From Octopus vulgaris (Eukaryota), in contig OX597840.1 in NCBI GenBank assembly GCA_951406725.2, positions 13,454,001-13,518,000 of the forward strand: DNA of 64,000 bases, given 5' to 3'. The notes beneath the pieces were generated by a model. The model ran no database searches. It saw only the letters and a list, made by a program, of their open reading frames with translations, and was not told where the DNA came from. The translations under genes and the position numbers were made by a program. Below are positions 594 to 61,099 of this stretch, one piece after another (the first letter of the stretch is position 1; every line of letters begins with the position of its first letter).

Positions 594-708
594 GATGATT
601 TCCCTGGTTTAATTCCTCTCATACACAAATATCTTGATTATAATTACGATACCGGTAGCAGACCTCAAAATATGAAATACCTGAAATATATTTCAGACAA
701 AGCTGCAG
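594..708 (+). CDS. Penultimate coding exon of an upstream tandem GCLC-like paralogue (copy A; rest of gene lies before the window)
   Basis: ctcaacAG acceptor at 593, GTAAGA donor at 709. Reads DDFPGLIPLIHKYLDYNYDTGSRPQNMKYLKYISDKAA, homologous to 59499-59616, with the flanking intron also similar. Confidence 0.88.
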
Positions 709-1248
709 GTAAGATGATTCATTTGTTTCCGTCGACTCATCCACCTTCAAATAGTTTTGAAAGCCCATAGAAAATGCGAGCCTTTTACGTGAAAAACTGT
801 GGATTTGTATAAAGGACACACAGACACACAGATACACAAACATTTTGCCGTTTATAGATATAGAGATGTTGCTGCAAATACACAACATTTAATCTCTAAT
901 GATGCTAGTTTGTTCTTTTTAATTATAAAATATAATGTTAAACTATCTTTTAACCTTGTAACAACCATCGTTAATAAACCATCAAACTCCAAATACTACG
1001 TACTTATATGAAGAAAACTGTGTGTGTGTGTGATTCTATCACAGTTAAACCATTCTATCACAGTTTGGTTTTAAGCAATGTTTTCAAAACAGTTATCACA
1101 GCTAAAACGAATAAAGAAAAGAAACAATTAGGGCTTTATCTGTTTTTGCCTCAGATCACGAAGTCAGGATATTGTTACAGAATACAGCAAATAATTTCCA
1201 TATAAAATAAATAATAAACCTTTTTTTTTATTTTCATTTAATTTATAG

Positions 1249-1415
1249 GAAAGATAAGGACAATGGCCCAATGGACAAGACAGTTTGTAACAAATCATGA
1301 AGATTACAAGAATGACTCTGTTGTCAGTGAGAGAATCGCTTATGATTTTATGATGGAATGTGAGAAGATTGTCAACAACGAAGAAGGATGTCCTCAAGCA
1401 TTTATCAGGAGTTAA
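1249..1415 (+). CDS. Terminal coding exon of GCLC-like paralogue copy A
   Basis: tttatAG acceptor at 1248. Reads (G)KIRTMAQWTRQFVTNHEDYKNDSVVSERIAYDFMMECEKIVNNEEGCPQAFIRS-stop (TAA 1413-1415). Same 167 nt length as 60933-61099. Confidence 0.88.
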
Positions 1416-1845
1416 CAAAAACTACAGCAATTTCACTTTGTATTCAGTCGAATAAAATTATGCCAGTGCTTATTATTTTCTACCGGTAGCTTTTGTCAAA
1501 CCGCTAAGTTACAAGGATATAAGCAAACAAACTCCAGTTGTTAAGAGATGATGGGTACAAAGACAGACACAACGCTTTATAGGTGCGAAAACAATGGTCA
1601 CTCTCTTACCGGCCATAACAAACGACCTTATATGTATGTGTATCAGGTATTATATCTATGTGTATATCAGGTATCAGGTGTTAACAAAAGCCATAATTTT
1701 GTTTAACTTATAAATAGGTGAAAAGAAAAACATGAAATCGGTACCAGAGGAATTTGAACTCAGAACGTAAGACGCTTAAAGAAATAACACTAAGAATTTC
1801 GCCCATGATTCTACTTTCTCACTGCTTTGTTGCTACTAAGCATGT

Positions 1846-21790: not shown

Positions 21791-22860
21791 AAGTTTATTG
21801 TTCTTGGAGTAAGTTACAAAAAAATTCTAAGATTCTCTCGACTTGTAATTCAAACCGCCTCATGGACCCGGCGTTACACCGGAAGATGACGAGGGGAGGC
21901 GCACTGAAACAGCCACTCTGAATAGTTCCGAAGCCTGATAAGCTGGCTGGGTTGTTAAGAAGTAGAGTAACTGAGAGTGAAGGAATAGACAGGAATTTAT
22001 AGGAGGTCAATCACCGTAGATACATGCGGCATACCAACAAAAAAGTTTAAGAGTAACGATCCTAATTACATGCTAAAAGAGTGTTGCCCCGACCTCATGT
22101 TCAACTCTTGTTTGTCAATGCTTTTTATAGACTGCCTTTTCTTAACATATTTGCTCAATCAACCAAGCAATTTTCTACATTAAACATCCATTCAGTCGGT
22201 CTGTCACTCTACTCGCAAGTTTACATTGCGGTCAAATCTTATTGAAACTACATATATTCGTCTTCAAAATAGTATAAGTTTCATAAAATGTTAACAACCT
22301 AAATACTGTCTGACACACAAAAACAAAAAAAAAAATCCGACACTTAAACAGGAGAAGCATTAAAAATTAGCAGCAGCTGAAGCAACGAGTGGCTAGCGTT
22401 ATTTTGTGCCAACACCTCACAGCATATGCTTCTTATTATTATTCTGGAGGGTGTGATAAAAGTTTCAAACATTCTCAAAACAAACCTTAAGGTTTTTCAC
22501 AATTTTTCAACACTTGGCGTTTTTTTCTATTTCTAGAAACTTGTAAATGTTTTCATGTCAGCAGTTAACTAGTTGTATGTATTTATCTGCAGCAACAAAT
22601 ATACTGTAACATTTCAGAATTAGCAGACGCCGTCTCTTTCAACATCGCAGTAAGTCCCGATGCTTTTATTATTATTATTATTATTCAGTAGTTATATTTT
22701 CATAGCGTGCTTTCACTTCACTGCCGAGCGCAGCTCTGTAGTGCCTTGGGTTTGTTGTGATGTTCTTTCTTTTATTGTATTGAAAATGTTTTACGTAGGA
22801 TGTGTGCAATGCCTACTAGTGCTATCTTCTGTGTGTTATATTTGTTATTCCTGGTGTAGT

Positions 22861-26669: not shown

Positions 26670-26730
26670 TCAGCTCACGAGCTGTGGCCATGCTGGCCAC
26701 AGCTCGTGAGCTGAAACTAGAATCAATCAA

Positions 26731-26833: not shown

Positions 26834-26875
<42 letters not shown>

Positions 26876-30646: not shown

Positions 30647-30796
30647 ATGGTATTTATAACAGACGGTACCCTAATGACATGGGAAGAAATTTTACCCCAC
30701 ATTTCAAATGTCAAGAAACAAGGAACGATGCAGTTTCTTTACCAGTATAAGAAATATAAAGACGAAAAGAATTATCCATTTTACTGGGGCGATGAG
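30647..30796 (+). CDS. GCLC: GCLC-like coding exon 1
   Basis: MVFITDGTLMTWEEILPHISNVKKQGTMQFLYQYKKYKDEKNYPFYWGDE, donor GTAAGT, phase 0. An acceptor tttcAG at 30585 suggests an upstream UTR exon. Confidence 0.93.
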
Positions 30797-40851: not shown

Positions 40852-42436
40852 ACGTGTGGTCTATACTATATATGTGTGAGTGTGTAGTATAAGCCACAAC
40901 TTCGAAGTCACTGTCACCACTCTTTCTGTAAATGAATTGAGTAATCCTTTAGTTTAATTGGAAAGTGTTTGCTTTATAACTCCACTTAAGAACAAACGTG
41001 AGAGAGAGAGGGAGAGGGAGGGAAGGCAGGAGAGAGCGGAAGGGAGAGGGAGGGAGAGAGAGGGGGAGGGGGAAGGCAGGAGAGAGCGGAAGGGAGAGGG
41101 AGGGAGAGAGAGAGAGAGAATTTATAACAAGATTATGTCATTATTTCAGTATGTGAAGGCGGTGAGGTCGACTTTGCCTTTCATCCTTTCGGGGTCGATA
41201 AATTAAATACCAGTTACGCACTGGGGTTGATATAATCGATTTAATCCGTTTGTCTGTCCTTGTTTGTCTTCTCTGTGTTTAGCCCCTTGTGGGTAGTAAA
41301 GAAATAGGTATTTCGTCTGCAGCTATATTCTGAGTTCAAATTCCGCCGAGGTCGACTTTACCTTTTATCCTCTCGGGTCGATAGAGTAAGTACCGCTTGA
41401 ACACTGAGGTTGATGTAATCGACTCATCCCCAGCTCCCCAGCCCCCTCAAGCTGCCCTTGTGGCAAAAAATAGAAGTAATTATTTCTGTATGTTAGTTTG
41501 TGAAGGCGCATGGCTCAGTGGTTAGATCGTCGAGCTTACGATCACGAGGTTGTGAGTTCGAATCCCGGACCGGGCTGTGTGCTGTGTTCTTGAGCAAGAC
41601 ACTTTATTTCACGTTGCTCCAGTTCATTCAGCTGTAGAAAGGAGTTGCAACATCACTGGTGCCAAGCTGTATCAGCCCCTTTGCCTTTCCCTTGGATAAG
41701 ATCAGTGGCATAGAGAGGGGAGGCCTGTATGCATGGGCAACTGCTGGCCTTCCATAAACAACCTTGCCCAGACTTGTGCCTCAGAGGGTAACTTTCTAGG
41801 TGCAATCCCATGGTCAGTCATGACCGAAGGGGGTTTCAGATGTTAATCTATACAAAGCATGATACTTCAAAATAAATCTTGTCTTATTCTGTATTTCATT
41901 TTGATTTCTTTTAAATGATTTTATCTCAAATATTGAAAATTCTTGTTTCAGTTTATAAAGATAAAAATACCATGATGCCATACGGGGAAGATATGTCCGA
42001 ATACGGAGACAATGAAGAGATGAAGAAATATTTAACACCAGGCTTTATCTACATGGACGCACCAGTATTTGGGGCTGGTTGTTGTTCCCTCCAAGTTACA
42101 TTTCAAGCTGCTGATATAAAAGAAGCTGCTTATCTTTATGATAATCTGGTACCTCTTACTCCAATTATGGTAAGGATGACCTTTTGGGGGTGGGGGACGG
42201 TAAAGTCACGAGCAGAACATCTCCATTTAGACAATGTGTGTTCGTAACACATGATGCTCAGCAGTTGTGTAAGGGGATACCGAGACACTGGGATGTTTCG
42301 ACCTTACTGCATGTCTCCTCAGTTAAAGCTACTCTACCTGACTGAAGAGCTACGGCATTGAGATTATTCTTAGTTGGTCTTCTATTGAAGTTACCTTTAC
42401 TAGCGAGTGTCTCCACTTAATTACAAACTCAGATCC

Positions 42437-43953: not shown

Positions 43954-44013
<60 letters not shown>

Positions 44014-47000
44014 ACATAGGATTGTTGCAGACGTTCTTCAATCTCCATCAGTGTTCTTTTTAGGCGGAACCTTTCACTGCTTTTGGAATGTTGGTTGAAA
44101 CGATTTGCAACTTTCGTCCGTCGCCTCATGAGGATTTTCCTCTCCCTTGGAATCTCGTTCTTTTTTTTTTGTGTTAGCCTTGTGCTCTGGGACATATTTC
44201 TGACATATGGTTTGTATAACAGACATGAAATACTCTAGTTTCATGCTAATGTCTGGTGTAGAGAGACATTTTCGTCAGTCCTGAGGTTCTCTTTTTGGAT
44301 ATATTTCCAGTCTGCTTTGTGGAAGTTCAGATTGGAGAGATTTTGCGTGCTTCCTTTAGATTGTATGACTCTCGCTACTTTTTTCCTGTACATAGACAGC
44401 TGTATTATGTTGATCCGAAACTAATATCGGCGTCACTTTCACATTATGAACGATGTCTATATTGTTTGTGAAGCAGAGATCCAATATGTTATTTTCTTTG
44501 GTTGGTCGGAGCACAATTTGCTCCATGACTAGAGCGTTAGTGAGGTTGAACAGGGACGCCGCCTGTATTTGTTTGCAATGAGTCATTCTTGAGAGCATGA
44601 GGCCCTCGGGCCATTTGACAGTTAGGAAGTTGAAATCGCCCGTAAGAAACACGCTCACGTGATATTCCAGTTTCATGGGAGTTTCTTTTAATTTTGTGAA
44701 GCAATCTTCAGACTTGCCCGTGTGGTTTGGAGTATCCGGTGGGCGATATGTACTGCATATGACTGTATTGTGTTGTCTTATGTATACAATTTGAGTGTCA
44801 CATGCTGAATTTTAGTAGAGCATGGGGCGCGAGGTCAACTCCACCATGGCTCCTTTTCCTTCTGTCCGTTCGCAGTACGGTATATTTTGGCACGTGACTT
44901 CCTGTATTCTCTCTATCAGGCCTATAATGAGTTTCTACAAGTGCTATGCATAGGGCTTGATGGCATGCAGTAAGATCTCTCAGGAAAAAAGATTTTGATT
45001 TTGTTGTGATACAACAGGCCTGAGGCTATAGTAAAAGACAGTTGCCCAAGATTCCACGCAGTGGGACTGAACCCAGAACCATGTGGTTGGGAAGCAAACT
45101 TCTTACTACACAGCCATCTGTCCGTTCGCAGTACGGTATATTTTGACACGTGACTTCCTGTATTCTCTCTATCAGGCCTATGATGAGTTTCTACAAGTGC
45201 TATGCATGGGGCTTGATGGCATGCAGTAAGATCTCTCAGGAAAAAAGATTTTGATTTTGTTGTGATGCAACAGGCCTGAGGCTATAGTAAAAGACAGTTG
45301 CTCAAGATGCCACACAGTGGGACTGAACCCGGAACCATGTGGTTGGGAAGCAAAACTTCTTACTACACAGCCATTTAAAAAAAATATTTGCTCATTTGTC
45401 TTTCTTCTTTTCAGCTTCCATTCACTGCTGCGGCTCCCATTCATCGTGGCTTTTTGACTGATGTTGACACTCGCTGGCTTTCCCTTTCTCAGAGTTGTGA
45501 TGATCGTACCAGACAAGAACGTGGATTAGAAGTGAGTTTTAATACGTTTACCTAACTCAAGGCGGTGAGCTGGCGGAATCGTTAAGACGCCAGGCGAAAT
45601 GCTTAGCGGTATTTCGTCTGCCGTTACGTTCTGAGTTCAAATTCCGCCGAGGTCGACTTTGCCTTTCATCCTTTCGGGGTCGATTAAATAAGTACCAGTT
45701 ACGCACTGGGGGTCGATATAATCGAATTAATCCGTTTGTCTGTCCTTGTTTGTCCCCTCTGTGTGTAGCCCCTTATGGGCAATAAAGAAACAAGAATAGT
45801 TAGGACTCCGGGCAAAATGCTTAGAGGCATTTCGTCTGTCCTTACATTCTGAGGTCGACTTTACCTTTTATCCTTTCAGGGTTGGTAAAATAAGTACCAG
45901 TTGAGCACTGGGATCGATGTAATTAACTTAACCCCACTCCTGATATTGCTGGCCTTGTGCCAAATTTGAAACCAGTATATATATCTCAATGGCGTCTAAA
46001 GTAAATTTTTTAAAGATTCCTCCTCAGTTTCTTAACAAAAATCGTCTTGAAGAATACACGTTGAGTGTTTGGGCAAAATTTGATAGTTGGCATGCGAGGT
46101 CTGATCAATTAGTATCCGAACTGTTGCCATAGTAACGAATCTAAAGCAGGCAGAGTAAAGTCGCTTGGTAAAAATTGACCTTAAATTCTACTGTGTATGC
46201 GCACTAAATTTTAATGTTCTAGCTCACTTCCGCTGTTTACTGCAGTGCTTGAAAGGAACGTGTGTAGCGTGTGATCGTCGCATTGACCATGACAGAGAAC
46301 GTTGTCTTGGCGATACCTGCTCAGAAGTCTACACAAAGTTGCAGAAAGTGTCTGGAGAGGAGTGTATGAGCCGCATACAAGGGTACGGGTGGTTCAGGCG
46401 TTTCCAAAATGGTCGAAAAATTTCGAACATTCTACGAGATACGCAACCAGCAGAACTGTGAAAAACATCGCAGATGTGCGTACAGCCGTGAGTGGAAATT
46501 CTCGAATCACCATCCGTGAGTTATCAGAGGATGTGCAGATTAGTTACGGTTCAGTTCAGTCCATTATCACTGAAGATTTGGGTATGAGACGCATGTCTGC
46601 CAAAGTTTGTGCCAAAACTGCTTTCAGCTGACCAAAAAGACACTCGGGTTTCAGTTACACAAGATCTCCTTCATTGTGTCGAGAACGATGAAAACTTTTT
46701 GAAAACTTTGCGCAGGCCTCTGAGCTGGTATCTCCAAGCTTTTGGCAAAACTTGATGCAGATCCTCTGCTCAACTTTCTCCATCATGGTCAATGCGACGA
46801 TCAAACACTACACACCTTACTTTCAAGCACTGCTGTAAACAACGGAAGTAAGCTAGAACGTTAAAACTTAGTGCGCATGCACAACAGAGTTGTACAGAGT
46901 TCCAAACGGCTTTACTCTGCGTGCTTTAGTTTCGTTACTATGGCAACAGTTCGAACATTTGTTGATTAGACCATGTACAAAGAAAAGAAAATGCAATATC

Positions 47001-50000
47001 CCATCTAATAAAAATTGTATTTAAAAAACTTCAAAAAATATCAACTAGATTATGGCTGAGAGATAACAGGTTACTCAAAGTAACCGCCTTCCGCTTCCAT
47101 CGTAGCCTTAAGAAGGTTTCGGAATCCCTGTGTCCCTGGAAAGATCTTCAAGCACCTTCTTGATCTTGGTCACCAGCTCGGTGTTGGTGTTGCAGGCAGA
47201 GCGGTTGGCGTCTTCCCCAACCACGCCCTACACATAGTAATCCATGGCATGACAATCGGAGGAATTAGGAAGCCAGAAATTGGGGCTAGAAAAAGGTGGC
47301 GAGTTGGCAGAATCGTTAGCACGCCGGGCGAAATGCTTAGCAGTATTTTGTCTGCTGCGGCGAGCTAGCAGAATCGTTAGCACGTCGGGCGAAATGCTTT
47401 GCGGTATTTCGTCTGCCGTTATGTTCTGAGTTCAAATTCCGCCGAGGTCGACTTTGCCTTTCATCCTTTCGGGGTCGATAAATTAAGCACCAGTTACGCA
47501 CTGGGGTCGATGTAATCGACTTAATACCTATGTCTGTCCTTGTTTGTCCCCTCTATGTTTAGCCCCTTGTGGGTAATAAAGAAATAGGTATTTCGTCTGC
47601 CGTTACGTTCTGAGTTCAAATTCCGCCGAGGTTGACTTTGCTTTTCATCCTTTCGGGGTCGATAAAATAAGCACCAGTTAAGCACTGGAGTCGATATAAT
47701 CGACTTAATCCATTTGTCTGTCCTTGTGTGTCCCCTCTATGTTTAGCCCCTTGTGGACAATAAAGAAATAAGAAACTGGGGCTAATGAAGTTGCAAGCAT
47801 TCTCAGCCAACCAATTCTGAATCTTTCCCAAGATGTGGCAAGGAGCTGAATCCTGCTGCCACACATTATGGCCTTCCATCAGTGACCCTCTCCATCCAGG
47901 GTTTGACCACAGTCTCCATCAGTTTCACATAGCCGTCTGAACTAAGCCAAAGACCCTGTTCAAAGATGTAAGGCGGCATGATGTTACCCTTACTAGAGAC
48001 ACATACAAAGACCGTCACAGTTTGGGGAACCTTGATTTTCATGATTCATGACGCATTACATGGATTGTGGGTAAACCACGTGTTCTTTTGGGTGTTGTGA
48101 AACTGGTCCTGGTAGACCTTTTTACATGAGAAGGTCCAGACGATCCCCTTGATCAGCTTGTTCGGGAGCTTCTTTGCGTTTGTCAAGCTGTTCTCCTTAG
48201 TCTTGGCTGTCAGAATTTGTCCCTTGCGCCTCTTGTATGAGTTGTAACTAAGGTCCTCATTCAGGGCCATCTTCATGATGGTGACTCCAACACTTATCAC
48301 TCTCGCCAAAGCCTGGATTCCTTTACTTAGATCTTCTATTATGTTGTCCTGCAGTTGTTGGATGAATTCTGGCGTGCAGAACGCCTGCTTTGTTCCTTCC
48401 TGTTAGCAACGGCTTCACACAGTCTCCCTCTTGCAGCTGGCCATATCACGTCTTACAGCCTTTACACTGTTCTCAAAGCTTTGTGCTGCAGACATGATGA
48501 CAGCATTTTGATACCCAGCAATAATCATCATGGCACAGGTAATTCTTTTTTAATATTCAGACCGTCGACCGTTCACCTGTACATTAAGCTGTTTCTGAAA
48601 TGAAGACATAAAAAAAATCGCCAGATTGAGTCGGGACACTCTATATTAAAGAAGACCTTGAAGCAGGTGAGAAGTTTAGTTGTAGAAAATCTGTCTCCAC
48701 GAAGGCGACGAGTTGGCAGAAACGTTAGCACGCCGGGCGAAATGCGTAGCCGTATTTCGTCTGTCTTTACGTTCTGAGTTCAAATTCCACCGTGGTCGAC
48801 TTTGCCTTTCATCCTTTCGGGATCGATTAAATAAGTACCAGTTAAGCACTGGGGTCCATATAATCGACTTAATCCATTTGTCTGTCCTTGTTTGTCCTCT
48901 CCGTGTTTAGCCCCTTGTGGGTAGTAAAGAGATAGGTATTTCGTCTGCCGTTACGTTCTGAGTTCAAATTCCGCCTAGGTCGACTTTGCCTTTCATCCTT
49001 TTGGGGTCGATGAATTAAGTACCAGTTACGCACTGGGTCGATGTAATCGACTTAATCCATTTGTCTGCCCTTGTTTGTCCCCTCTCTGTGTAGCCCCTTG
49101 TGGGCAGTAAAGAAATAAGAAAATCTGTCTCCACAAATTCTGTCTGATTCATGCGAGCATGGAAAGTGTACGCGTTTAAACTATGATGGTAATAGTACTA
49201 ATCTAAATATGAACCGCTTATGGCCGTGGGTGAGTTGGTATTAGTTAAAGAATAAATGTCTTGAAATCGTTTCTTTTACATATATACTTTATAATCTCTT
49301 GTCTTCATTTAGCCTTTGACAAATGGAAGTGTTTTTATTCCAACAACGCGTTTTGATACAGTATGCAGTTACCTTTCTGTGAGCGACCAATTTTATAACG
49401 ACTATGATTACAGTTATGATCCTGAGCAGTATGAATTATTGAAGGCTGAAGGTATTTAGAAATTATTTAAAACATAAAAATAGTTTTGGGTTTATTTTGT
49501 ATGAAAATATTATCATTAACAGAATTATCTTTTTTACTTTTCCGACTTTGTATCGAGTTGCAAAAATTTACTCTCAATTTTTTTTATTTATGCGCCCTTT
49601 TCAAGCCTAGCTAGGCTCATGGGCCCGGTTTCCCGGTTTCTGTGGCGCATGTGTTCCTCACCAGCTGGACGGGACGCCAGTCCATCGCAGCGTTACTCAA
49701 GAAACAGAAAGAAAGAGTGAGAGAAAGTTGGGGCGAAAAAGTACAACAGGGGTCACCACCATCCCCTGCCGGAGCCTCGTGGAGCTTTAGGTGTTTTCGC
49801 TCAATAAAAACACACATTGCCCGGTCTGGGAATCGAAACCGCGATCCTCCGACCGCGAGTCCACTGCCCTAACCACTGGGTCATTGCGCCTCCACTTACT
49901 CTCAATTGCATTCATTAAAGCATCTAAGATTCGTGTTAATCGTTCAAAAATACACAGAAACGAATAATTTCACTTAACTGCTTGGTGTCAAAATCATCGT

Positions 50001-53000
50001 TGCACTGTCTGTAATCTGGTTAGGAATGAGGATTTTGACACCAAGTAATGCCAAGGACCACTCCGTCGTTTACGACGAAGAGGGTCTCAGCTGATACGAA
50101 GGTATGTCTACGAAATACTAGATTAGGTATTTGACGGCAATAAAGGACATTTTATTTCTTGAAATAAATCTTTAAAAAATGGTCTCTATTTACCTTTGAT
50201 ACATATTACTCAATTATCAATTTTTCTCTTGAAAACATGCTACAATTTTATAAATTTAATTAATTAAAATATTTTTTTAATTAATCAGGTGTTGATGAAA
50301 TGATGGCCAAATATGTTGCCCAACTTCTTGTTAGAGATCCAATCACTTTGTACAAAGAAAAGGTTCATCAAGACGTGGAAGACACTGATCACATTCAGGT
50401 GAGACATCGGTTGAACACTTTATTTGTAAATAAGTCCATTAAATAGTAAAGGAACGTAGCTAAAGTGGTTGAGGTGTTCGGTTCACAATCATAGTGTCGT
50501 GGGTTCAATTCGTAGTGAATAGGACGCCAAAGTGTTACAGAGTTAACTTCCTAACTGCTCCTACTACTTCTTTCTTTTTCTTTTTCCTCTTTTTCCATTT
50601 CTTTTATCCTTTTCTTTTTCTTTTTCTTTTATTTTTCTTTTCTTTTTCTTCTTCTTCTTTTTCTTCTTCTAATCAGGACTCACGCCATTAGCCACACAGA
50701 ATAATCGCTAATTCGAGCCTACCCTAAGCTACTAAGAGTGCATGTGGCAACTTGAAGATCCACCCACCACACATGATAGACTGGCGGTTGCACGGGCGCG
50801 AAAGCTACGTTGTTATACGCATTCCGTAAACGGTGGCTTTTAACGGGTGGAGAGCTGAACCATCATTGGGTACAGAGGATTCGTAATCTAGACTAGGGTT
50901 TGAAAGTTTACCACCCCATAGTGGATTACACATTGGTTCCTCCTGCCACAAAGCTTTGTGGCAGAAGTAAGAAAAGAGTGAGAGAAAGTTGTGGTGAAAG
51001 AGTACAGCGGGGTTCACAACACCAACACCCCCCTGCGCCGGGGCCTCGTAGAGCTTAGGTGTTTTGCTCAATAAATACTCACAATGGGAATCGAAACCGC
51101 ATTCTTACGACTGCGAGTCTTCTACCCTAACCATTCTTACGACTGTGAGTCCGCTACCCCAACCACTGGGCCATTGCGCATCCACCTAACTGCTGCTGGA
51201 ACTCTGTGCCACATAAAAAGCACTGGTGATGGTGCCTTGTAAAAATCACTGGTGATAGTGCCATATAAACGGCGCTGGTGTTGGTGCCACATAAAAAGCA
51301 GCGGTGATGGAACCATAAACATAGGATTCCTTGAAGAGAAGCAAACACTCATAAGAATCTTGTACTCTGCTATTTTATTTATCCAACCCAAATAGTTGAA
51401 AGCAGGATTTGAACTCATACTGGAGAGAACTAGAAGAAATAAGTGGTACATTTATAGGAACTCTAACAACTCTGTAGTCTTGTTACCTAATGCAAGAATT
51501 AATATATTGTGGAACACGATTTTTGTCCTTGGGCAGCAACTGTTATTTCCTATTTGCTTACCCTAAGAAAGTAAGAAAAATAACTAATATTTCCTTCAAA
51601 CTTTACTTTTCTTATATTTATTCAAACCCAAAGAATTCCTCTCAACACATGGCTATGATGCTCCTCCATTACTGCTGCTCATCATCAGAGATGCACATAT
51701 TGTCAGCCACTTAGGGACTTGCTCAAGTGATTAAGGTCAAGCAACTGTTAAGTAAATCTGTGCTATTGAACAGAATATTTGATTCAGCTTCTGCAACTCA
51801 GTGCTGAATTTGTCTGAAATTTAAAGGAAAATAGGTCAATTTCAGAACATCGATGTCCAAGTGACAAAGGCAAACTATGAAGGGGATAGTAGTCATTTCC
51901 TTTGATTTCTAGATAGAAGCAAATAGGAAATGTAACACTTACTGGCAAACACACACAAAAATAATAAAATTTTTTTTTTACAGTGTTATCAATGTGCAGG
52001 AAAGTTGAGACAAATGCGTGATAGCATAATTGCTTGAATTCAATAATGTTGTTGAAATATAAGGAATCTTTTCTTGAACTTTCAAATTTCTTACATTTTT
52101 CGTAAAAGAGGACCATTAAAGGGAATAAAAGTATTATGAACAAAAATGTTGAAGGGTTAAATGTGATATTTCGATACAATATCGATAAAGTCAGTAAACC
52201 ATTTATTGATATTAAAAGGCGAAGCTGAAAGCTCTGTGCAATAGTAATTGTCAATAGATGTTTGTTATGAATCTTTATCGAAGGATTCCAAAAAATCAAT
52301 GAGAAAATTCTATTGGATGTGTTTTAATTGAAAAATTTTTCACAGCTTTGACCTCACAAAATATACACTTTTACATCATACATTGGTAAAGGTCAAAGGT
52401 CACTTTAGATTTTGCTTTTTGTTTAAAATATGTAAACATTTTCTATTCATTTTACACAGCAATTATAACAAACATGACTAAATACTTTTTCTACACATCA
52501 TAATACTAAATAACAATTAGGTGTACGTTATAAATGTGAGCTATGCCCTACATTTTATCATAACCAACAATTTGTGATGTGCATTATACTCTAGTATGTA
52601 TTATGAACGGATGAATATATTTGTTATTAAATCAATTATATATATATATACACGTTCTATATATGTGACTAAAGTTGTTTAACATTCTGTTTTAGACCAT
52701 TATTGGAAGTAATTGGCACACCTTGAAACTGAAACTTCCTGATGAGAAATCTGGATGGAAAATAGAATTCAGGACAATGGAGGTAACATTTTACTAGAAA
52801 CTGTCTCCGTAAAAGATATTTCTGTATACTTCATTGTATATAGGTGCAGACATAGCTTTTTGGTGTTGGTTTCATATCAGCATGGTTATGAGTTCAATCT
52901 CAGTGCAAGACACCTTGCAAAAATATTTTCTAATAACATTGGGTTGATTGATACTTTGTGAGTGGGATTTGGAAGAATTTGTTATATTATTTGACTTGTT

Positions 53001-56000
53001 TGAACCATCGGACAGCAACCATGCTACAGGCACCAGTTCCAAGGATTCGATCAGTCATATCAATTCCAGAACTTATATTTTTAAGTCCAGACTTTATTTT
53101 CTCGATCTCCATAAACACCAAGACTGGTAGTTTGTAAATAGTCAGTGAACCATGAAGCCATACACACACACACTCACATGCATGCACACACACATAGATA
53201 CATATATAAATGTATGACTTGTTTGAACCATCAGACACACAGAAGCATGCACACATATGCACACAGACACACATAAGCATGCACACATACATACACACAT
53301 AAGCAGGCACACAGACACACATAAGCATGCATACATACACACACATAAGCATGCACACATACACAAACATGTTCACATACACACACACACACAAGCATGT
53401 ACGCATACATACACGCATAAGCATGCACACATACACACATAAGCATGTACTCATACACACAGACATACATAAGCATGCACACATACACACACACACGCAT
53501 AAGGATGTACACACACACACACACATACACACACATAAGCAGGCACACTGACACACATAAGCATGCACACATACACACACACACATAATACACATATATG
53601 ACAGGCTTCTACACACTTTCTGGCTACCAAATTCCACTTGGATTTTCACTTTTCCATATATCATTGTTATGATACCTGTATATTATATCACTCTCCATAT
53701 ATCTATATTACCACCTATGTATTATTATACATTCTGTATATATATCTGTATATACATTCTGTATATATCGCTGTCTGTTATATTCATGTCACGGCATAAA
53801 CAGTAGTATCATTACCTATAAATTAGTAAATGCTGATGTCGGCATGAAAATTATACGGAAAATAAAATTAATATTAAAAGATTACACCCTTTATTTAGTA
53901 ATTACTTCAACACCACGTTTCTAGTGAAAACCCTTGCCAAGCTGGAGGGGAGTGATTCGCTCCCTTACTCACAATATATCAGACATAGGTTGTGTTTCTT
54001 ATTTACATTATTTACATTTGACGGATATTTGTCCTCACCTTGTTTGTTGTTAACACAACGTTTCGGCTGATATACCCTCAAGCCTTCTTCAGGTGTCTTG
54101 GGGAAATTTGGAACCTGGGTTCTCATTCCCCAAGACACCTGATGAAGGCTGGAAGTTATATCAGCTGAAACGTTGTATTAACAACAAACAAGGTGAGGAT
54201 AAATATCCGTTGAATGTAAATAATGCACATAATTCCTCATCTCTTAAATATAGAACTGTATAGGTTGTGTGTCGTTAACCAGCTGGAAAAGTCGTTTTCC
54301 TGGGGCTAAAATGTAGTAACAGCGTTTTAAGATTTTATGCTTGTAAGTCTTAAAGATATCAGTATGTATCAAAAACAAATAAATAATGCAGAATAATTAA
54401 CCATAAAAAAATTTAGCGGAAAGACAGATCCAAAGGAGACAAACTCCAAAATATGCCACTCTACTGTAACATCCTTGATTCATTGCTTCATCCACGTGAA
54501 TTTACGAGAAATCCCATGAATGAAGTGAGATTGTTTTCCAGAATGGAGGTAAACACCTTTCTCCATGTGATCGGCTTGAAAAATTAAGACACTATTTTGC
54601 TACTTTTCTTAATATGAAACCACTGGTAGCCTTAATTAACAAATAAAGAAATTATATATCCACTAATGTGGTGTTGAGCACTCTTTTCTTCATTCGACAT
54701 TTACATGCACACACACACACACACATACATATATATAATAACATGCGTTGCTGTGTGAAGGTGCAGGTGTGGCTGTGTGGAGGTGGAGGCGTGGCTGTGT
54801 AGCAAGAAGCTTGCTTCCCAACCAGATCGTTCTGGGTTCAATCACACCTTGAACAAGTGTCTTCTACTATAGCCTTGGAGTGACCAAAGCCTTGTGAGTG
54901 GATTTGGTAGATGGAGCTTGAAAGAAGCCCGTCGTATATTTACTTTGCATATATCTGTGTTTGTGTCTGTTTGTCCCCACTCTGCCATCACTTGATAACC
55001 AATGTTGGTATGTTTACATCCAGTAACTTAGCAGTTAGGCAAAAGACGCCGATAGCATAATTACTAGGCTTACAAAGAATACGTTCTAGGGTCGATTTGT
55101 TCAACTAGAAACCCCTTACTAGACTAGAAACATTGTCCAAGAATAAAATAATTGACTGTATTTCCAGCTTCAATTGACTGACTTTGAAAACGCTGCCCTT
55201 GTTGTATTTATGGTTCTTCTTACTCGAGCCATTGTTACCTTCAAACTGAACCTTTTGGTCCCAATAACAAAGGTAAATATTGATTTCTCTACAATAAATA
55301 TTGAACTCTTTCATTTAACTAAAGATATATATGAACTACAGTTGGCGTTTAATTATATCTCAAAACATTGCTTTCTTAAGATTGTTTTTTAAAAGTTAAT
55401 ATCTTTTTTAATCATGAAACATTTTTAAATATTTACACTATATTTCAACCGGTTTGGCTTCAGCCACTATCATGTTTTAGGTTTTGGGATGGAAACAGGA
55501 AACTGCTTCGTGAGATTAGGGCAAAGCAACTGAGATTTCTAGGAACAGCGCCTGGAAAATTTATAACCAGTTCTTTTTCTTAAATCATTTACAATCTGCC
55601 GCATGTCACAGCCCATGTTTCACTGTCATGTAGCATAGCTGTTTGCACACAGGCATCATACAATCTACCTTTCACTCTAAGGTGGGGTCCCATTGTTAAT
55701 AACAAAACTGGTAGCTCTCTGTACTTTGCCCAGCTTGTTCTTATTCTAGCAACTATGCTCTCAGAACTTCTTCCACCACTGTTAACTTGATCATTTGGGT
55801 AATGGAAGTTATCTTCTGCTTCCAAGGATTTTCACAGATATTTGAAGAAGCTTATTTTCTGTACCTTCCGAGTTTTTATTGTACCCACTCATCTGTCACA
55901 CATAAAGACTACTTTCTCTGTTAATTTTCCTGTAGCACTGCTGCACCTCTTATGTATCCATAGCTTGCACTGGGTACCCTGTATGAAGTACCTACAAACA

Positions 56001-56743: not shown

Positions 56744-59700
56744 TAATCGAAGTGTGCAATATTATATATCCATTACAGCTGATCGGTTTCACATCAGGAG
56801 TTCAAAGGTGCGTTAGGTAACAGTCCAGTTAAGCAACCCTGCGCTCTTTAAAGGTAGCTGTTATGGAATGTAGAATGATGGCTACCTCTGAAGAGCGTGG
56901 GGTTATATAATTCAACTGTTACCTAACACTGTGCGAAACCGATTGGTAAGATCTGCTGTGGTGGATATATAATATTGTAGACTTTGATTAATATACCCAC
57001 TGCTGACAGATATATGAGTGCATTTTTTCCTGACTTATGGACTCTTAGACAGCTTACAGATACACACACACACACATATATATTCAATGTATCATATAAT
57101 ATACCCGAAAAAGAAGAACATTCCAAGGCATAGACGTAATGTATTTTTATGTAGTTAAGTCTAAGTGCGGTCATAGTGATCAATGGTTTCGCATCAAGCC
57201 CTATGGATGGTTCGTCAGACTCTAAAGCCGAAGGCCCATATAACTCTTCAACCCTGGAAGGCAGGAATCCGTTATGGTCTGTTAGCAAGTAACCGAAGAA
57301 TAAGCAATACAGGTCGGCGAGGATGGGTTATCTCCTTTAGACCGGTTCATCTGGGCCAAAATGTGTGTGTGTGTGTGTATTAAAATATCTTCTTACATGT
57401 AATTTTTCCTTCTCCAAGGTTACTGAAAACTTCCCACCAGCACAAAAACGAGATGCCATTACTAAAGAAAAGTTTTACTTCAGGAAAAATGTTCAACAAG
57501 GTAAGAATTGAATTTCTTGGAAATTCTGAGAACGAAAACACAATTTTAACTTTGACTAAATTTTGTAAAGGATTAAAAAATCTAATAGGGATACCCAAAA
57601 CGGCCCCTAATATTTTCTTGTTTAGACACAGATCATAACAATCAAGAGTTGCGATATCCTTAGTCATCATAAACAGTATTTAAGGATTTCTCGATGTTAC
57701 CATATGGGTATATATTTTCTGTATGGAACACTATGTATCTAAAATACCCGGAGGTTAGGGTGACTGGGTTACGAATACACAGACAAGCACCGTTATTTAT
57801 CACCGAACATGCACAATTAAATGTATTTACTATAGCTAATCTATAATTTTTTCTGCTAATTAGAAGTCGCTGATTGTGAACTAACTGGTGATATTTATAC
57901 CTTGATGACTCTAAACGAAATCATGAATGGAAAGGTAAAAGATATTTTTAATAATCCTTTAATCTTTAACTCTATATATTTCATTGTAAATGCTAGTTTT
58001 TCTAAACATCAACTTGTGATTTCCCTAGCCACGTCATTAGCGATGTTTCAGAAGTCACTGGACATTTTGCATCTATTATCAATCAGACAATTTCATACAA
58101 GTAACACAGCCATTGTAAATCAAGTTCAAGCATAGCAAGTTCAAGTTAGCATGGGGCCTTTCAGATTTGTGCTAACTGATCACATATTATGAATCAGTTT
58201 AAAAAACATGACTAGTTTTGATATTATATTTGAACTTCTATCATGTCAATAAGGAATAGTTAAGTTTTGAATCCAAAAATTGGTAAGTTTCTGTATCAGG
58301 AAGCATTTCTGTAAAGGAAAGCTTTTAGTAAAACTGAGTAAGTAAAATCCTTAGCTGGGGACCAGAGTGGAGGCTCTCAACCAATATTCTGCTATGGGTG
58401 CTGCTGGATGACAGATTCTGGTGATGTTGTTATTCCATACTTTCCGATCCACAGCGCTGGCCTAAGCAGTCTTGTGGTCGAGGCACTGCAAGTAAAATCT
58501 GTAGCTGGCGACTGGAGGGGAGGCTGTCCTCTCATCCAATATGCTGCTGGATGACGGACTCTGGCGACAATGTTATATCACACTTTCTGGTCCATGGTAC
58601 TGGTCCATGGTACATTCTTGACGTCAAGACGCTGTAACTTCAGGACTTCCACAATTTGTTTTGCTCATGTCTTCTGGATTCTTCAGTGCAAGGTTCACTG
58701 TTACCACAAAAGTGAGTGTAGTAGTCTTTCAGTGCTCATCCTGCAGACGTGGCCAAACCACTGAGGCCAGCATTGCTGGACTTGATCTTTAGTGGTCGGC
58801 TGCTGCTGGCATTGTACAACATTGCTTGCTTCGCTCAGCTTTAAAGACTCAGGATCAACAGGGACAAGAAAAAAGTCCTAACAACGGATGGCTTCCTAGC
58901 CATTGTGCATCTTGATGGCATTCAGATTAAAAACTGTGAAAAGAGAAGAATCATCATGGAAGCTGATGAGTTTATTAATCCTCTCTGAACTCTTGTATTG
59001 AATTTCCATTCAATAACTTGTAGAGTTGAAATAATTTCCAAGAGATTAGTTAATCTGAGATTTGATAAGATCAATTACTGTGAGAAGAGGGAAGAGGGTA
59101 GAATCTCTAGAAGTGCTTTCTCATAAAAATATTAAAAAACTTTTGTAACCAGCTGTCCGACCTCTTAAACAATTTCGAAACTTCAGGGAAGAAAACTGAA
59201 ACTATTTAATTATTTTGCTTCTATTGCCAACAGGATAATTTCCCTTATTTGCTTCCTCTCATCTACACACATCACTAATTTTCCTTGTCATAATTTTCTG
59301 CAATTCATCGTTAGTCTTCTCTCTAGTGTTTTAATGATTCACCACATTTTATGTTAGAAATCATCATAGTTTCATTAAAAGCGGGGTCAAAGACTGCCAT
59401 AAATATATTCCAGATTATATAATGAAATTTTCTTTGGTCAACATCTCCAACAGAAAAACTCAAACTATTTCCAATCCTTTTGATTCTATTCTCAACAGGA
59501 TGATTTCCCTGGTTTAATTCCTCTCATACACAAATATCTTGATCATGTTGACTACGATTCCAGTAAAAGACCTAAAATAATGCAATACCTGAAATTTCTC
59601 TCAGACAAAGCTGCAGGTAAGACGATTCTCATTTGTTTTCATCAATATTAAACAAATGTTATTAGAAACATTCAACCTTAAAACTCATTGTTGAAAGTAT

Positions 59701-60628
59701 TTATTTAAATAAAAATTCGACATAGGTTTCCATAATCGATATTTATATAATATATGTCCATCATTCCATTAACAATTAAAATCCAAATGTTTAAAATTAA
59801 GGAAAATATCGCGTTTACTACACAAAGAAGATTATCTCCCATGCAATAGAAATGTCCAAGCTTGCTTCCCAATCACATGGTTCTAGGTTCAGTCCCACTG
59901 CGTGGCATTTTGAAAGTGTCTTCTATAAACTCGGGTCAACCAAAGCTACGTGAGAGGATTTGGTAGACGGAAACTGAAAGAAGCCCGTCGTATGTGTGTC
60001 TGTGTTTGTCCCCCCACCACTTGACATCCAGTGTTGGTGCGTTTACATCCATGTAACTTATTAGATCGGCAAAAGGACTGATAGAATAAGTGCGAGGCTT
60101 TAAAAAGTGCTAATGTTGTTTGATTCCACAGAAATTCACCAAGGCAGTGCTCCAGCATGGCCGCTGTCAAATGACTGAAGCTAGAAGACAAAACACACAC
60201 ACATACACAGACAGAGAGATGCATACACATATAGTAAAGACCGTTTTTGGTCGCGAATGACCATTGCATTGCACCTAGAAAGTTCCCATCTGAGGCAACT
60301 GTCTGGGCAAGGTTGTTCATGTAAGACCAGGCATCACCCATGCATACCAGCTTCCCTTCTCCACGTAACCGATGTTATCCAAGGGAAAGGCTAAAGGGGC
60401 CGATACAGTTTGGCACCAGTGACATCGCAGCTCATTTCTGCAGCTGAGTGAACTGGAGCAACGTGAAACAAAAAGAAAACCCAGTCCGGGAATTGAACTA
60501 GCATCCCGAATATAAGTCCCACACTTAACCACTGTGGTATGCACCTTCACAAAAAGTTGTCGACAAACAACCACGTGATTTTATATATACACATATGATT
60601 GAAAACGTACGCACTCATTAATATTTTA

Positions 60629-60669
<41 letters not shown>

Positions 60670-61099
60670 CTTTTGCTCTTGTACTTGTTTCAGTCATTTG
60701 ACTACGTCCATGCTGGAGCAACACCTTAAAGGGTTTTAGTCGAACAAATCGACCCCAAGACTTATTCTTTGTAAGCTTTGTAGAAACAATTATCACTGCT
60801 AAAACTATTAGGGCTTTATCTATTTGTACCTCATTTGACGAAGCCAGGATATTGTTACAGAATACACCAAATAATTTCCATCTGAAATGAAAAACGAATT
60901 ATTTATTATTCTAATTTATTTTTATCTTACAGGAAAGATAATGACAATGGCCCAATGGACAAGACAGTTTGTAAGAAATCATGAAGATTACAAGAATGAT
61001 TCTGTTGTCAGTGAAAGAATCGCTTATGATTTTATGATGGAATGTGAAAAGATTGTCAACAGTGAAGAACGATTTCCACAAGCTTTTATCAGGAGTTAA
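30647..61099 (+). CDS. GCLC: Divergent glutamate-cysteine ligase catalytic subunit-like gene (copy B), 16 coding exons, 1821 nt CDS, about 606 aa
   Basis: Hand-spliced exons join in frame with GT-AG introns and no internal stops, collinear with eukaryotic GCLC from the N-terminus (TWEE...WGDE) to the C-terminus (YKNDSVVS). The symbol denotes family; orthology to canonical GCLC is doubtful. Confidence 0.92.
31683..31899. repeat. About 96 bp inverted repeat (foldback) between (TA)n tracts in intron 1
   Basis: 31683-31778 is the near reverse complement of 31803-31899. Confidence 0.85.
32106..32212 (+). CDS. GCLC: GCLC-like coding exon 2
   Basis: tttcAG|TEYSLIRFDHEERVVQLPLTSTSFFESPQVQALES, donor GTGAGT, phase 2. 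Confidence 0.92.
32525..32912 (+). mobile_element. Tx1/L1 RT fragment in intron 2
   Basis: SIRQRCPLSPLLYVL, SAYGDDVTII, GRWTEGPVK; related to 8254-9096. Confidence 0.8.
33647..33754 (+). CDS. GCLC: GCLC-like coding exon 3 (5' boundary uncertain)
   Basis: (S)LWTPEYAEFMMEGKPRNPFGTAITDLNRTEEHFIE(R), donor GTAACC. The only nearby in-frame AG is a weak caaAG at 33646. Confidence 0.82.
34808..34873 (+). CDS. GCLC: GCLC-like coding exon 4
   Basis: ttttAG|RKAIKQFLGPNESLVSLTAFP(R), donor GTGTGT. Confidence 0.9.
35904..36020 (+). CDS. GCLC: GCLC-like coding exon 5
   Basis: tttcAG|LGCPNFSFPSYEVNKHPTEFYKSVFVPDGALSSRLPLF(L), donor GTGAGT. Confidence 0.9.
38012..38923 (+). mobile_element. Internally deleted mariner element with intact TIRs, carrying a SINE insertion
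   Basis: TIRs TATCGGGTTGTCCGAAAAGTTCGTGCCGATTT and AAATCGGCACGAACTTTCTGGACAACCCAATA; ORF HPPYSPDIAPSDFHLFRSLQNSL. Confidence 0.92.
38189..38517 (+). mobile_element. Young tRNA-derived SINE
   Basis: TSD AATTCTGTAAC; almost identical to 40139-40469. Confidence 0.92.
39013..39071 (+). CDS. GCLC: GCLC-like coding exon 6
   Basis: ttttcaAG|NMRENFTTRKEERISINVP, donor GTAAGT, phase 1. Confidence 0.9.
40139..40469 (+). mobile_element. Young tRNA-derived SINE inserted in a Tc1-like end (CAGGGTTGGCCAAAAGTCACC at 40083)
   Basis: TSD AATCCCAAGATTT. Confidence 0.92.
41952..42169 (+). CDS. GCLC: GCLC-like coding exon 7
   Basis: tttcAG|(I)YKDKNTMMPYGEDMSEYGDNEEMKKYLTPGFIYMDAPVFGAGCCSLQVTFQAADIKEAAYLYDNLVPLTPIM, donor GTAAGG. 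Confidence 0.95.
42469..42760. mobile_element. Short element with about 59 bp inverted arms
   Basis: 42469-42527 versus 42656-42714; the tail GCAGCTACTGTTTATACCTAGCTCAGAGATTTATTATTG matches 4530-4568. Confidence 0.75.
43300..44900 (-). mobile_element. Degenerate CR1/L2/Jockey-group LINE (APE domain and linker)
   Basis: Minus strand YRPP, FLTGDFNF, PTKENNILDLCFTN, SATGPV-like pre-RT motif. Confidence 0.8.
45415..45531 (+). CDS. GCLC: GCLC-like coding exon 8
   Basis: ttttcAG|LPFTAAAPIHRGFLTDVDTRWLSLSQSCDDRTRQERGLE, donor GTGAGT. Confidence 0.95.
46095..46977 (+). mobile_element. Non-autonomous mariner derivative with about 200 bp inverted arms
   Basis: HTH-like RITIRELSEDVQISYGSVQSIITEDLGMRR; about 46095-46290 is roughly the reverse complement of about 46785-46977. 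Confidence 0.85.
47080..48640 (-). mobile_element. Degenerate Tc1/mariner (maT/DD37D-like) transposase interrupted by a SINE at 47295-47770
   Basis: Minus strand WQQDSAPCH, FWLPNSSDCHAMDYY, LNEDLSYNSYKRRKGQILT. Confidence 0.8.
49313..49451 (+). CDS. GCLC: GCLC-like coding exon 9
   Basis: catttAG|PLTNGSVFIPTTRFDTVCSYLSVSDQFYNDYDYSYDPEQYELLKAE(G), donor GTATTT. Confidence 0.92.
50289..50398 (+). CDS. GCLC: GCLC-like coding exon 10
   Basis: aatcAG|VDEMMAKYVAQLLVRDPITLYKEKVHQDVEDTDHIQ, donor GTGAGA. Confidence 0.93.
51205..51320. repeat. About 26 bp minisatellite GTGCCACATAAAAAGCACTGGTGATG
   Basis: Four to five imperfect tandem units. Confidence 0.8.
52696..52782 (+). CDS. GCLC: GCLC-like coding exon 11
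   Basis: ttttAG|TIIGSNWHTLKLKLPDEKSGWKIEFRTME, donor GTAACA. Confidence 0.93.
53235..53595. repeat. CA-rich minisatellite (CATAAGCATGCACACATACACA)
   Basis: Direct reading. Confidence 0.92.
54007..54225. repeat. Foldback element with about 100 bp arms, each containing a minimal hammerhead ribozyme motif
   Basis: 54007-54105 is the near reverse complement of 54126-54225; CTGATGA-stem-GAAACGTT core. Confidence 0.82.
55168..55272 (+). CDS. GCLC: GCLC-like coding exon 12
   Basis: ttccAG|LQLTDFENAALVVFMVLLTRAIVTFKLNLLVPITK, donor GTAAAT. Confidence 0.95.
55595..56450 (-). mobile_element. Degenerate RTE-group LINE RT fragment
   Basis: GIDEWLVRAV, FSVQVGVHQGSVLSLLLFIIVL, VKGRLYDACVQTAMLHDSETW. 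Confidence 0.85.
57419..57500 (+). CDS. GCLC: GCLC-like coding exon 13
   Basis: ctccaAG|VTENFPPAQKRDAITKEKFYFRKNVQQ, donor GTAAGA. Confidence 0.92.
57864..57934 (+). CDS. GCLC: GCLC-like coding exon 14
   Basis: aattAG|(E)VADCELTGDIYTLMTLNEIMNGK, donor GTAAAA. Confidence 0.88.
59499..59616 (+). CDS. GCLC: GCLC-like coding exon 15
   Basis: caacAG|DDFPGLIPLIHKYLDHVDYDSSKRPKIMQYLKFLSDKAA(G), donor GTAAGA. Confidence 0.93.
60933..61099 (+). CDS. GCLC: GCLC-like terminal coding exon 16
   Basis: cttacAG|KIMTMAQWTRQFVRNHEDYKNDSVVSERIAYDFMMECEKIVNSEERFPQAFIRS-stop. Confidence 0.93.

What the first reader, a model, noticed from the sequence alone, without database searches (positions are those of the whole stretch)
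594..61099. Tandem array of GCLC-like paralogues, a normally single-copy gene
Seen: the last two exons of a second copy (594-708, 1249-1415) lie about 59 kb upstream in the same orientation, with open frames, intact splice sites and the same stop. Intron flanks are still alignable (CAAACTATTTCCAAT..TTTTGATTCTATTCTCAACAG at about 556 and 59461; GGATATTGTTACAGAATACA.CAAATAATTTCCAT at about 1167 and 60847), so the duplication is fairly recent. Established: GCLC is single-copy in most model animals. Inference: a lineage-specific expanding cluster.
Basis: partly seen in the sequence, partly recalled or inferred. Interest (0 to 1): 0.75.

Follow-up and report, generated by a model that had tools for sequence, protein, structure and literature searches.

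The report
Octopus glutathione-ligase copies, remodelled pocket
Octopuses keep a normal gene for the first step of glutathione synthesis and also carry about six fast-evolving extra copies, two of them here, that keep the catalytic core but have a rebuilt substrate pocket, so they probably join glutamate to something other than cysteine.

Summary
The duplication is real. Copy B is a complete 16-exon gene (30647-61099, 606 aa) with spliced contigs in 3 public runs. Copy A's two exons are the tail of a separate annotated gene. They match O. vulgaris CAI9741798.1 and CAI9741797.1, two of six divergent GCLC-like proteins on one chromosome; four have consecutive accessions. It is neither a haplotype artefact nor very recent: A and B are 76% identical, each has its own O. 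sinensis orthologue (99%), and the A/B split predates O. bimaculoides (~34 Mya). 3' ends are partly homogenised. All 10 full-length copies keep the Mg/ATP/catalytic residues (yeast E50, E52, E96, E103, K451, E470, R472). All lose R196 (189 of 189 canonical keep it) and M262, and 9 lose M258, each paralogue differently. Best reading (~0.6): neofunctionalised ATP-dependent gamma-glutamyl ligases with new acceptors, possibly amines. That R196, M258 and M262 line the cysteine pocket is recalled, not checked. No substrate or tissue is shown, and I found no paper describing the family.

The parts
594..708 (+). Copy A, penultimate coding exon (equivalent of exon 15); one codon shorter than in copy B
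   Evidence: AG/GT ends; with the next exon gives the C-terminal 93 aa of CAI9741797.1 exactly
1249..1415 (+). Copy A, last coding exon to TAA; AATAAA at 1451
22624..22649 (+). 3' part of a candidate upstream (probably untranslated) exon of copy B, used by the public O. vulgaris model; donor GT at 22650, acceptor ending 30585
   Evidence: translation matches the model's N-terminal extension; splicing not tested
30647..30796 (+). Copy B exon 1 (ATG; aa 1-50; carries yeast D49, E50)
   Evidence: exact exon solution reproducing CAI9741798.1 from its MVFI start
32106..32212 (+). Copy B exon 2 (E52)
33647..33754 (+). Copy B exon 3 (E96, E103; T105 replaced by K)
34808..34873 (+). Copy B exon 4
35904..36020 (+). 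Copy B exon 5 (H194 and R196 both replaced by L)
39013..39071 (+). Copy B exon 6 (L200 replaced by M)
41952..42169 (+). Copy B exon 7 (M258 to P, M262 to A, C266 to S; C264, Q268, Q272 kept)
45415..45531 (+). Copy B exon 8 (R313 kept)
49313..49451 (+). Copy B exon 9 (Y362 to F)
50289..50398 (+). Copy B exon 10
52696..52782 (+). Copy B exon 11 (W445, K451, E470, R472 kept; Q441 to I, R449 and R468 to K)
55168..55272 (+). Copy B exon 12
   Evidence: joined to exon 13 in contigs of 3 of 4 runs laid
57419..57500 (+). Copy B exon 13
57864..57934 (+). Copy B exon 14
59192..59323 (+). Decayed partial duplicate of exon 15 and its acceptor inside intron 14 of copy B
   Evidence: local score 108 vs maximum 47 among 500 random window pieces; blastn E 1e-4; skipped by the exon 14-15 joint
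59499..59616 (+). Copy B exon 15
60933..61099 (+). Copy B exon 16 to TAA
   Evidence: exon 15-16 joint in 1 of 4 runs

Best explanation
An octopod ancestor duplicated GCLC at the DNA level. The canonical copy stayed on a large chromosome and presumably still makes gamma-Glu-Cys. The other copy evolved about ten times faster and then expanded locally to about six genes in Octopus; copies A and B are two neighbours of that set (shown). The copies keep the residues that bind three Mg2+ ions, ATP and the glutamate gamma-carboxylate, so they most likely still form gamma-glutamyl phosphate and transfer it to an amine nucleophile, with E96 as base (inferred from conservation). The wall of the acceptor site is rebuilt: R196 becomes a hydrophobic residue, M262 a smaller or branched residue, and M258, H194 and L200 vary from paralogue to paralogue. 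They are therefore most likely gamma-glutamyl ligases for acceptors other than cysteine, each paralogue with its own preference (inferred). Loss of the arginine recalled to pair with cysteine's carboxylate favours acceptors without a carboxylate, such as biogenic or dietary amines (speculative).
For: Canonical gene retained: O. vulgaris CAI9722052.1 (176.7-Mb contig), O. sinensis, O. bimaculoides and Argonauta orthologues; the two scored keep 172 of 172 invariant columns. Divergent clade is sister to octopod canonical GCLC: 100/99 support, stem 0.73 vs 0.075-0.087; SH-aLRT 99 with eight other long-branch proteins added; 22 rare shared residues vs a median of 3 among 189 canonical proteins. Of 10 yeast contact residues in Table 3 of PMC5613772 (section read), eight (D49, E50, E52, E96, E103, K451, E470, R472) are kept in all 10 full-length divergent proteins, while only 88 of 172 invariant columns are kept in all 10. 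R196 is R in 189 of 189 canonical and 0 of 10 divergent proteins; M262 0 of 10, L200 0 of 10, M258 1 of 10, H194 1 of 10. Five of the 12 invariant columns with four or more different residues among seven paralogues are H194, R196, L200, M258 and M262. Intact 16-exon frame; spliced joints in contigs of 3 runs from 3 studies, none in the large DNA-like run; orthologues 89-92% identical across ~34 My; fold matches yeast GCL 3ig5, TM 0.72.
Against: No activity, substrate or tissue is shown. That R196, L200, M258 and M262 line the cysteine pocket is recalled from the yeast structure papers, which could not be read. The two cysteine contacts I could verify in print, E96 and W445, are kept in A and B, as are Y97 and F197. 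The changes are not confined to the acceptor site: about 28% of invariant columns are changed in each copy, including Y362 to F in 8 of 10 (a glutamate contact), T105, Q441, R449 and R468, so general relaxation could explain part of the pattern. The AlphaFold model is below pLDDT 50 over the pocket segments. FastTree placed the clade with other long branches, and the AU test did not reject an origin outside canonical molluscan GCLC (p 0.064). For amines specifically, a review says gastropod monoamine catabolism by gamma-glutamylation differs from that of cephalopods (PMC6454038, passage).
Confidence: 0.6

Rival explanations
1. Still gamma-glutamylcysteine synthetases: extra copies that raise or deregulate glutathione synthesis in some tissue (changed kinetics, less feedback, no modifier subunit).
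For: E96, W445, Y97, F197, R313 and C264 are kept in A and B; all copies pass the Pfam GCS cut-off (454-455 bits vs 25); C266 and the column of human C553 (recalled as tied to feedback and to the modifier subunit) are changed in all 10.
Against: R196 is kept in 189 of 189 canonical proteins and lost in all 10. Paralogues differ from each other most at these invariant sites, which dosage does not need. A fully conserved canonical gene exists.
Confidence: 0.2
2. Ligases in which the acyl donor has changed too (aspartate, aminoadipate, a D-amino acid or a pigment precursor), for example in an octopus-specific product such as adenochrome.
For: Y362 to F in 8 of 10, I317 changed in 9 of 10, C266 in all, and R313 lost in paralogue F. 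Adenochrome is described from the O. vulgaris branchial heart (PMC7545470, passage).
Against: E52, C264 and R472 are kept in all 10 and R313 in 9 of 10. Nothing links these genes to that organ, and adenochrome's peptide chemistry is recalled only.
Confidence: 0.1
3. Pseudo-enzymes co-opted as structural or binding proteins, as cephalopod S-crystallins arose from GST and vertebrate lengsin from glutamine synthetase (both recalled).
For: Long stem, tandem expansion, and loss of several residues near the nucleotide site (T105, R449, R468). Paralogue F also lost R313, W445 and R327.
Against: All metal ligands, K451 and R472 are kept in 10 of 10 proteins while half of the invariant columns are not.
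Confidence: 0.07
4. Redundant duplicates decaying without a function, or a haplotype mis-assembly.
For: Repeat-rich region; exon 15 dN about equal to dS between A and B (0.137 vs 0.121, only 22 synonymous sites); several public models of the paralogues are truncated or mis-spliced.
Against: A and B are 76% identical against a reported heterozygosity of 1.22%; separate orthologues in O. sinensis at 98.8% and 99.3%; open frames kept across three Octopus species and Argonauta; exon 16 dN/dS 0.038/0.256; spliced contigs.
Confidence: 0.03

Closest known systems
[quoted passage not shown]
   Same: Same Pfam family and fold; same Mg, ATP and catalytic residues; derived from the octopod canonical gene; copy B is 52% identical to it.
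   Different: About 28% of otherwise invariant columns changed; R196, H194, L200, M258, M262, C266, Y362 and Q441 replaced; the C-terminal tail and the insert near residue 490 are missing; about six copies on a different chromosome.
Public annotations 'glutamate--cysteine ligase catalytic subunit(-like)' in O. vulgaris, O. sinensis, O. bimaculoides and Argonauta hians
   Same: They are these genes: B = CAI9741798.1 and A = CAI9741797.1.
   Different: Automatic names only. None of my searches listed a paper on the expansion or the changed active site.
Gamma-glutamylhistamine synthetase / gamma-glutamyl-amine conjugation of gastropods (Aplysia, Helix)
   Same: The chemistry proposed here for the boldest reading: glutamate joined to a primary amine. 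The activity is named in reference lists and one review passage; its ATP dependence and its lack of a known gene are recalled.
   Different: No gastropod protein falls in this clade: Aplysia, Biomphalaria, Littorina and Pomacea GCLCs are canonical. Cephalopods are said to differ from gastropods in monoamine catabolism. At most a convergent function.
Bacterial carboxylate-amine ligases of the same superfamily (YbdK/GCS2, PafA)
   Same: Same fold (Foldseek 1r8g, 1tt4, 4b0t); precedent for new acceptors on a kept gamma-glutamyl-phosphate core (recalled).
   Different: 9-14% identity; no direct relationship.

Membership tests
Eukaryotic GCS/GCLC family (PF03074) | Whole-protein match above the Pfam gathering score | tested here: met
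   B 454.6 bits and the A orthologue 455.4 bits vs cut-off 25, profile 1-372 covered
Eukaryotic GCS/GCLC family (PF03074) | GCL fold | tested here: met
   Model pTM 0.73, mean pLDDT 65.5; top Foldseek hit 3ig5, E 7e-32, TM 0.72
Canonical GCLC (EC 6.3.2.2) | Mg ligands E50, E52, E96, E103, E470; ATP contacts D49, K451; catalytic R472 | tested here: met
   All eight kept in 10 of 10 divergent proteins; roles from Table 3 of PMC5613772; numbering from the alignment to 3ig5
Canonical GCLC (EC 6.3.2.2) | Glutamate alpha-carboxylate contacts Y362 (in print) and R313 (recalled) | tested here: inconclusive
   R313 kept in 9 of 10; Y362 kept in 2 of 10 and F in A and B
Canonical GCLC (EC 6.3.2.2) | Invariant HPRF and MDxMGFGMG motifs (R196, M258, M262; recalled as the cysteine pocket) | tested here: not met
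   R196 189 of 189 canonical vs 0 of 10; M262 186 of 189 vs 0 of 10; M258 186 of 189 vs 1 of 10
Canonical GCLC (EC 6.3.2.2) | Cysteine contacts E96 and W445 | tested here: met
   Both kept in A and B; W445 kept in 8 of 10, lost in paralogues D and F
Canonical GCLC (EC 6.3.2.2) | Is the genome's GCLC orthologue | tested here: not met
   A separate short-branched orthologue exists on another chromosome in three Octopus species and Argonauta
Canonical GCLC (EC 6.3.2.2) | Forms gamma-Glu-Cys; inhibited by BSO and glutathione; binds GCLM | not testable with these tools
   needs enzyme assay
Gamma-glutamylamine synthetase activity of molluscs | ATP-dependent gamma-glutamylation of histamine, serotonin, dopamine or octopamine | not testable with these tools
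   no sequence of that enzyme was found to compare; needs assay
Haplotype duplication artefact | Near-identical copies without separate orthologues in other species | tested here: not met
   76% protein identity; separate O. sinensis orthologues at 99%

The most novel reading that the evidence does not exclude
The cluster is an octopod-specific family of gamma-glutamyl-amine ligases built from the glutathione enzyme, each paralogue tuned to a different amine or small metabolite (biogenic amines such as octopamine, tyramine, serotonin or histamine, or dietary amines). It would give a first gene family for an amine-glutamylation chemistry long known in molluscs. The other unnamed long-branch GCLC-like proteins with rebuilt pockets seen would be repeated, independent inventions of the same thing in other animals.
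Probability: 0.25. Interest if true: 0.82.

Novelty: new variant of a known kind. Interest (0 to 1): 0.6.

Why it matters
GCLC is among the most conserved metabolic enzymes and is single-copy in the usual model animals (recalled). A family of six copies with a kept catalytic core and six different acceptor pockets points to an unrecognised branch of small-molecule metabolism in octopuses. It offers named, cloneable candidates for gamma-glutamyl ligases with new specificity, and a natural mutational series for what sets cysteine specificity in GCL. It also warns that octopus stress studies reporting 'GCLC' expression may be measuring one of these paralogues rather than the glutathione enzyme.

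Tried and rejected
Whole-genome copy count: no genome is held for the window, so the count comes from annotated proteins, and tandem order outside the window is inferred from consecutive accessions and a shared contig length. Tissue of expression: no RNA holder was listed on record and no tissue labels were given. Supplement searches of three octopus papers found nothing, but only 393, 3,805 and 24,410 characters were readable (one PDF not searched), and a fourth paper's file was too large; these supplements may bear on expression and prior notice. The yeast GCL structure papers were not held and two searches found no usable text on Arg196, so pocket roles stay recalled. A Fisher test of catalytic vs pocket sites is not relied on, because I chose the sets after seeing the alignment. 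An ancient shared origin with other long-branch GCLC-like proteins appeared in FastTree; I set it aside as long-branch attraction after the mixture-model tree and the shared-residue count, but it is not formally rejected (AU p 0.064). Whether the expansion predates Argonauta is unresolved: Argonauta groups with B at SH-aLRT 96-97, is open, AU p 0.278. One search returned the quick tree because the careful search did not finish. The ESM Atlas gave only generic GCL clusters. The AlphaFold model was too weak over the pocket to measure it. Whole-gene dN/dS was not possible without DNA of the other paralogues. No third copy or relic lies in 1416-30646. Earlier-scan look-ups returned nothing on this locus. 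Absence from squid and cuttlefish is not shown: no named decapod GCLC of either kind appeared in the listed hits (120 shown per search).
Full report
Observation. The two exons at 594-708 and 1249-1415 are real. They have AG/GT ends, splice into an open frame of 93 residues ending in TAA, and align to 59499-59616 and 60933-61099 at 88% and 93% nucleotide identity. Both last exons and the exon at 41952-42169 hit Pfam GCS. A self-BLAST of the window showed these two blocks as the long matches for the first 1.5 kb; the printed output was cut and otherwise showed repeats.

Anatomy. Copy B is a complete gene. A search for GT-AG exons that reproduce a database protein gave 16 exons from 30647 to 61099, encoding 606 residues identical to O. 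vulgaris CAI9741798.1 from its MVFI start. Copy A's tail is identical to the C-terminus of O. vulgaris CAI9741797.1, whose O. sinensis orthologue XP_036370512.1 is a full 606-residue protein. So copy A has upstream exons outside the window. The 29 kb between A's stop and B's ATG hold no further GCLC exon (best tblastn E 0.01 for 12 queries), but they do hold transposon relics: PIF1 helicase, reverse transcriptase and aspartyl protease. Intron 14 of B holds a decayed duplicate of exon 15. Contigs of 3 of the 4 public runs laid (three studies) join exons 12-13-14-15 at GT..AG, and one also joins 15-16. The fourth, large DNA-like run (about 76% read) shows none of these joints. One contig has no mismatch over exons 12-14, which differ between paralogues. 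None of the runs is on record as RNA and no tissue is given. Copy A's expression was not tested.

The family. O. vulgaris has six divergent GCLC-like proteins on one 40.2-Mb contig: CAI9741796, 97 (A), 98 (B), 99, CAI9742054 and CAI9742280. O. sinensis has the same six on one 20.3-Mb contig, one split in two models. O. bimaculoides has at least four plus a fragment, and Argonauta hians has one among the listed hits. That the first four are adjacent is inferred from consecutive accessions; only A next to B is seen directly. All four species also have a canonical GCLC on a different, much larger contig (O. vulgaris CAI9722052.1). The O. vulgaris and Argonauta canonical proteins keep 172 of the 172 columns that are at least 97% conserved among 189 canonical hits; the divergent copies keep 63-76%. 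The 189 are top hits plus three others, rich in vertebrates and insects, and not independent.

Origin and age. In a 19-row maximum-likelihood tree of exons 1-14 (exon 6 left out), the divergent clade joins the octopod canonical proteins with 100/99 support, on a stem of 0.73 changes per site against 0.075-0.087 for the canonical tips. The grouping holds under a mixture model with eight other long-branch proteins added (SH-aLRT 99). Octopus canonical GCLC shares 22 otherwise rare residues with the clade against a median of 3. Against this, FastTree on 172 rows put the clade with other long branches, and an AU test did not reject the alternative (p 0.064). An unnamed cephalopod-like canonical protein branches just outside (SH-aLRT 93). 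A and B are not haplotypes: they are 76% identical, each 99% identical to its own O. sinensis orthologue, against 1.22% reported heterozygosity (PMC10700109, passages). They are not very recent either: over exons 7-14 B is 92% identical to its O. bimaculoides orthologue and 81% to A, and that paper dates the species split to about 34 Mya. The 3' exons mislead on age. B and its neighbour C are identical over 94 residues of exons 15-16 but 80% identical over exons 7-14; within each species B and C share residues that differ between species; A and D are 95-96% identical in exon 16. This is the pattern of gene conversion. For A against B itself, the tail gives dS about 0.19 on 51 sites and flanks of 78-84%.

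Active site. Yeast numbering was read off the alignment to 3ig5. Table 3 of PMC5613772 (section read) lists ten yeast contact residues. Eight of them (D49, E50, E52, E96, E103, K451, E470, R472) are kept in all 10 full-length divergent proteins scored, as are Q268, Q272 and C264, although only 88 of the 172 invariant columns survive in all 10. The other two are Y362 (glutamate carboxylate; F in 8 of 10, including A and B) and W445 (cysteine carbonyl; kept in 8 of 10, including A and B). The sharpest change is R196: R in 189 of 189 canonical proteins, and L, V, F or Y in all 10 divergent ones. M262 and L200 are changed in all 10, and M258 and H194 in 9. These five sites are among only 12 invariant columns where seven paralogues show four or more different residues. 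From memory of the yeast structures, which I could not read, R196 pairs with the cysteine carboxylate and Y97, F197, L200, M258 and M262 form the side-chain pocket. The predicted model matches 3ig5 (TM 0.72) but is unreliable over these segments.

Mechanism. Shown: a retained canonical gene, an accelerated and expanded sister clade, an intact and spliced copy B, kept metal and catalytic residues, and changed invariant motifs that differ among paralogues. Inferred: the copies still activate glutamate with ATP and transfer it to an amine, but to acceptors other than cysteine, with different preferences (about 0.6). Speculative: the acceptors lack a carboxylate, as biogenic amines do (about 0.25). 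Gamma-glutamyl conjugation of monoamines is known in gastropods (review passage PMC6454038; reference-list entries only in PMC4472778 and PMC13281674). The same passage says gastropods differ from cephalopods in this, and the gastropod GCLCs in my trees are canonical, so any link would be convergent. Rivals are deregulated gamma-Glu-Cys synthesis (0.2), a changed acyl donor (0.1), a structural pseudo-enzyme (0.07) and decay or artefact (0.03).

Known or new. The genes carry automatic 'GCLC-like' names in public annotation. Five searches aimed at octopus and this enzyme (listings and abstract starts only) listed no paper on the expansion. Main-text searches of three octopod papers (PMC7656900, PMC12607849, PMC11431876) and the O. 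vulgaris genome paper had no relevant mention. The library lacks most subscription papers, and several supplements were unreadable. It is a member of the GCS family but fails the test for canonical GCLC on orthology and on the invariant motifs, so I file it as a new variant of a known kind.

Verdict. Observation confirmed; interpretation partly supported. The cluster is real, older than suggested, and more interesting for its rebuilt active site than for its copy number. Interest 0.6, limited by the lack of any substrate or tissue evidence and by the recalled pocket assignments.

Noticed in passing
window 59192-59323: Decayed duplicate of exon 15 with its splice acceptor inside intron 14 of copy B; not seen at the matching place in copy A; skipped in spliced contigs.
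   Followed up: partly
proteins P0124/P0005, P0011/P0126, P0127/P0009: 3' exons homogenised between neighbouring paralogues (B and C identical over exons 15-16; A and D 95-96% in exon 16), with species-specific shared residues: gene conversion.
   Followed up: partly
proteins P0136 vs P0236, and P0135: The deposited O. vulgaris protein QHX41528.1 matches paralogue E but has a different last exon from the genome model CAI9742054.1, closer to an O. bimaculoides fragment. This could be a seventh copy, an alternative last exon or a mis-joined model.
   Followed up: no
proteins P0133, P0131 (paralogue F): The most altered copy: lost R313, W445 and R327 while keeping all metal ligands; may have changed donor or lost activity.
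   Followed up: no
proteins P0248, P0253-P0256, P0262, P0264, P0267, P0304 (unnamed representatives): Other long-branch GCLC-like proteins with changes at R196, M258 and/or M262 but kept catalytic residues, not sister to the octopod clade under a mixture model (five of them tested). Possibly repeated independent remodelling in other animals; 10 of 149 representatives have a residue other than R at 196.
   Followed up: partly
window 3038-4279 (+): Broken PIF1 helicase reading frames, Helitron-like relic (PF05970 E 2e-59, PF21530).
   Followed up: no
window 8254-12527 (-): Frameshifted LINE-type element with reverse transcriptase matches; a further endonuclease/RT relic at 43599-44811 (-) in intron 7 of copy B.
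   Followed up: no
window 18509-19497 (+): LTR-retrotransposon relic with an aspartyl protease match; mariner-like frames at 5450-6270, 38548-38847 and 46293-46631 judged by eye only, no Pfam hit.
   Followed up: no
window 22624-22649 and 30586-30646: Candidate upstream exon and acceptor that the public O. vulgaris model uses to add 32 residues before the conserved start; more likely 5' untranslated.
   Followed up: partly
window 26700-27050 and 28700-29120: Long (AT)n-rich arrays of about 350-420 bases upstream of copy B's start; further tandem duplications of 256, 184 and 61 bases at 44861-45374 and 47298-47770.
   Followed up: no
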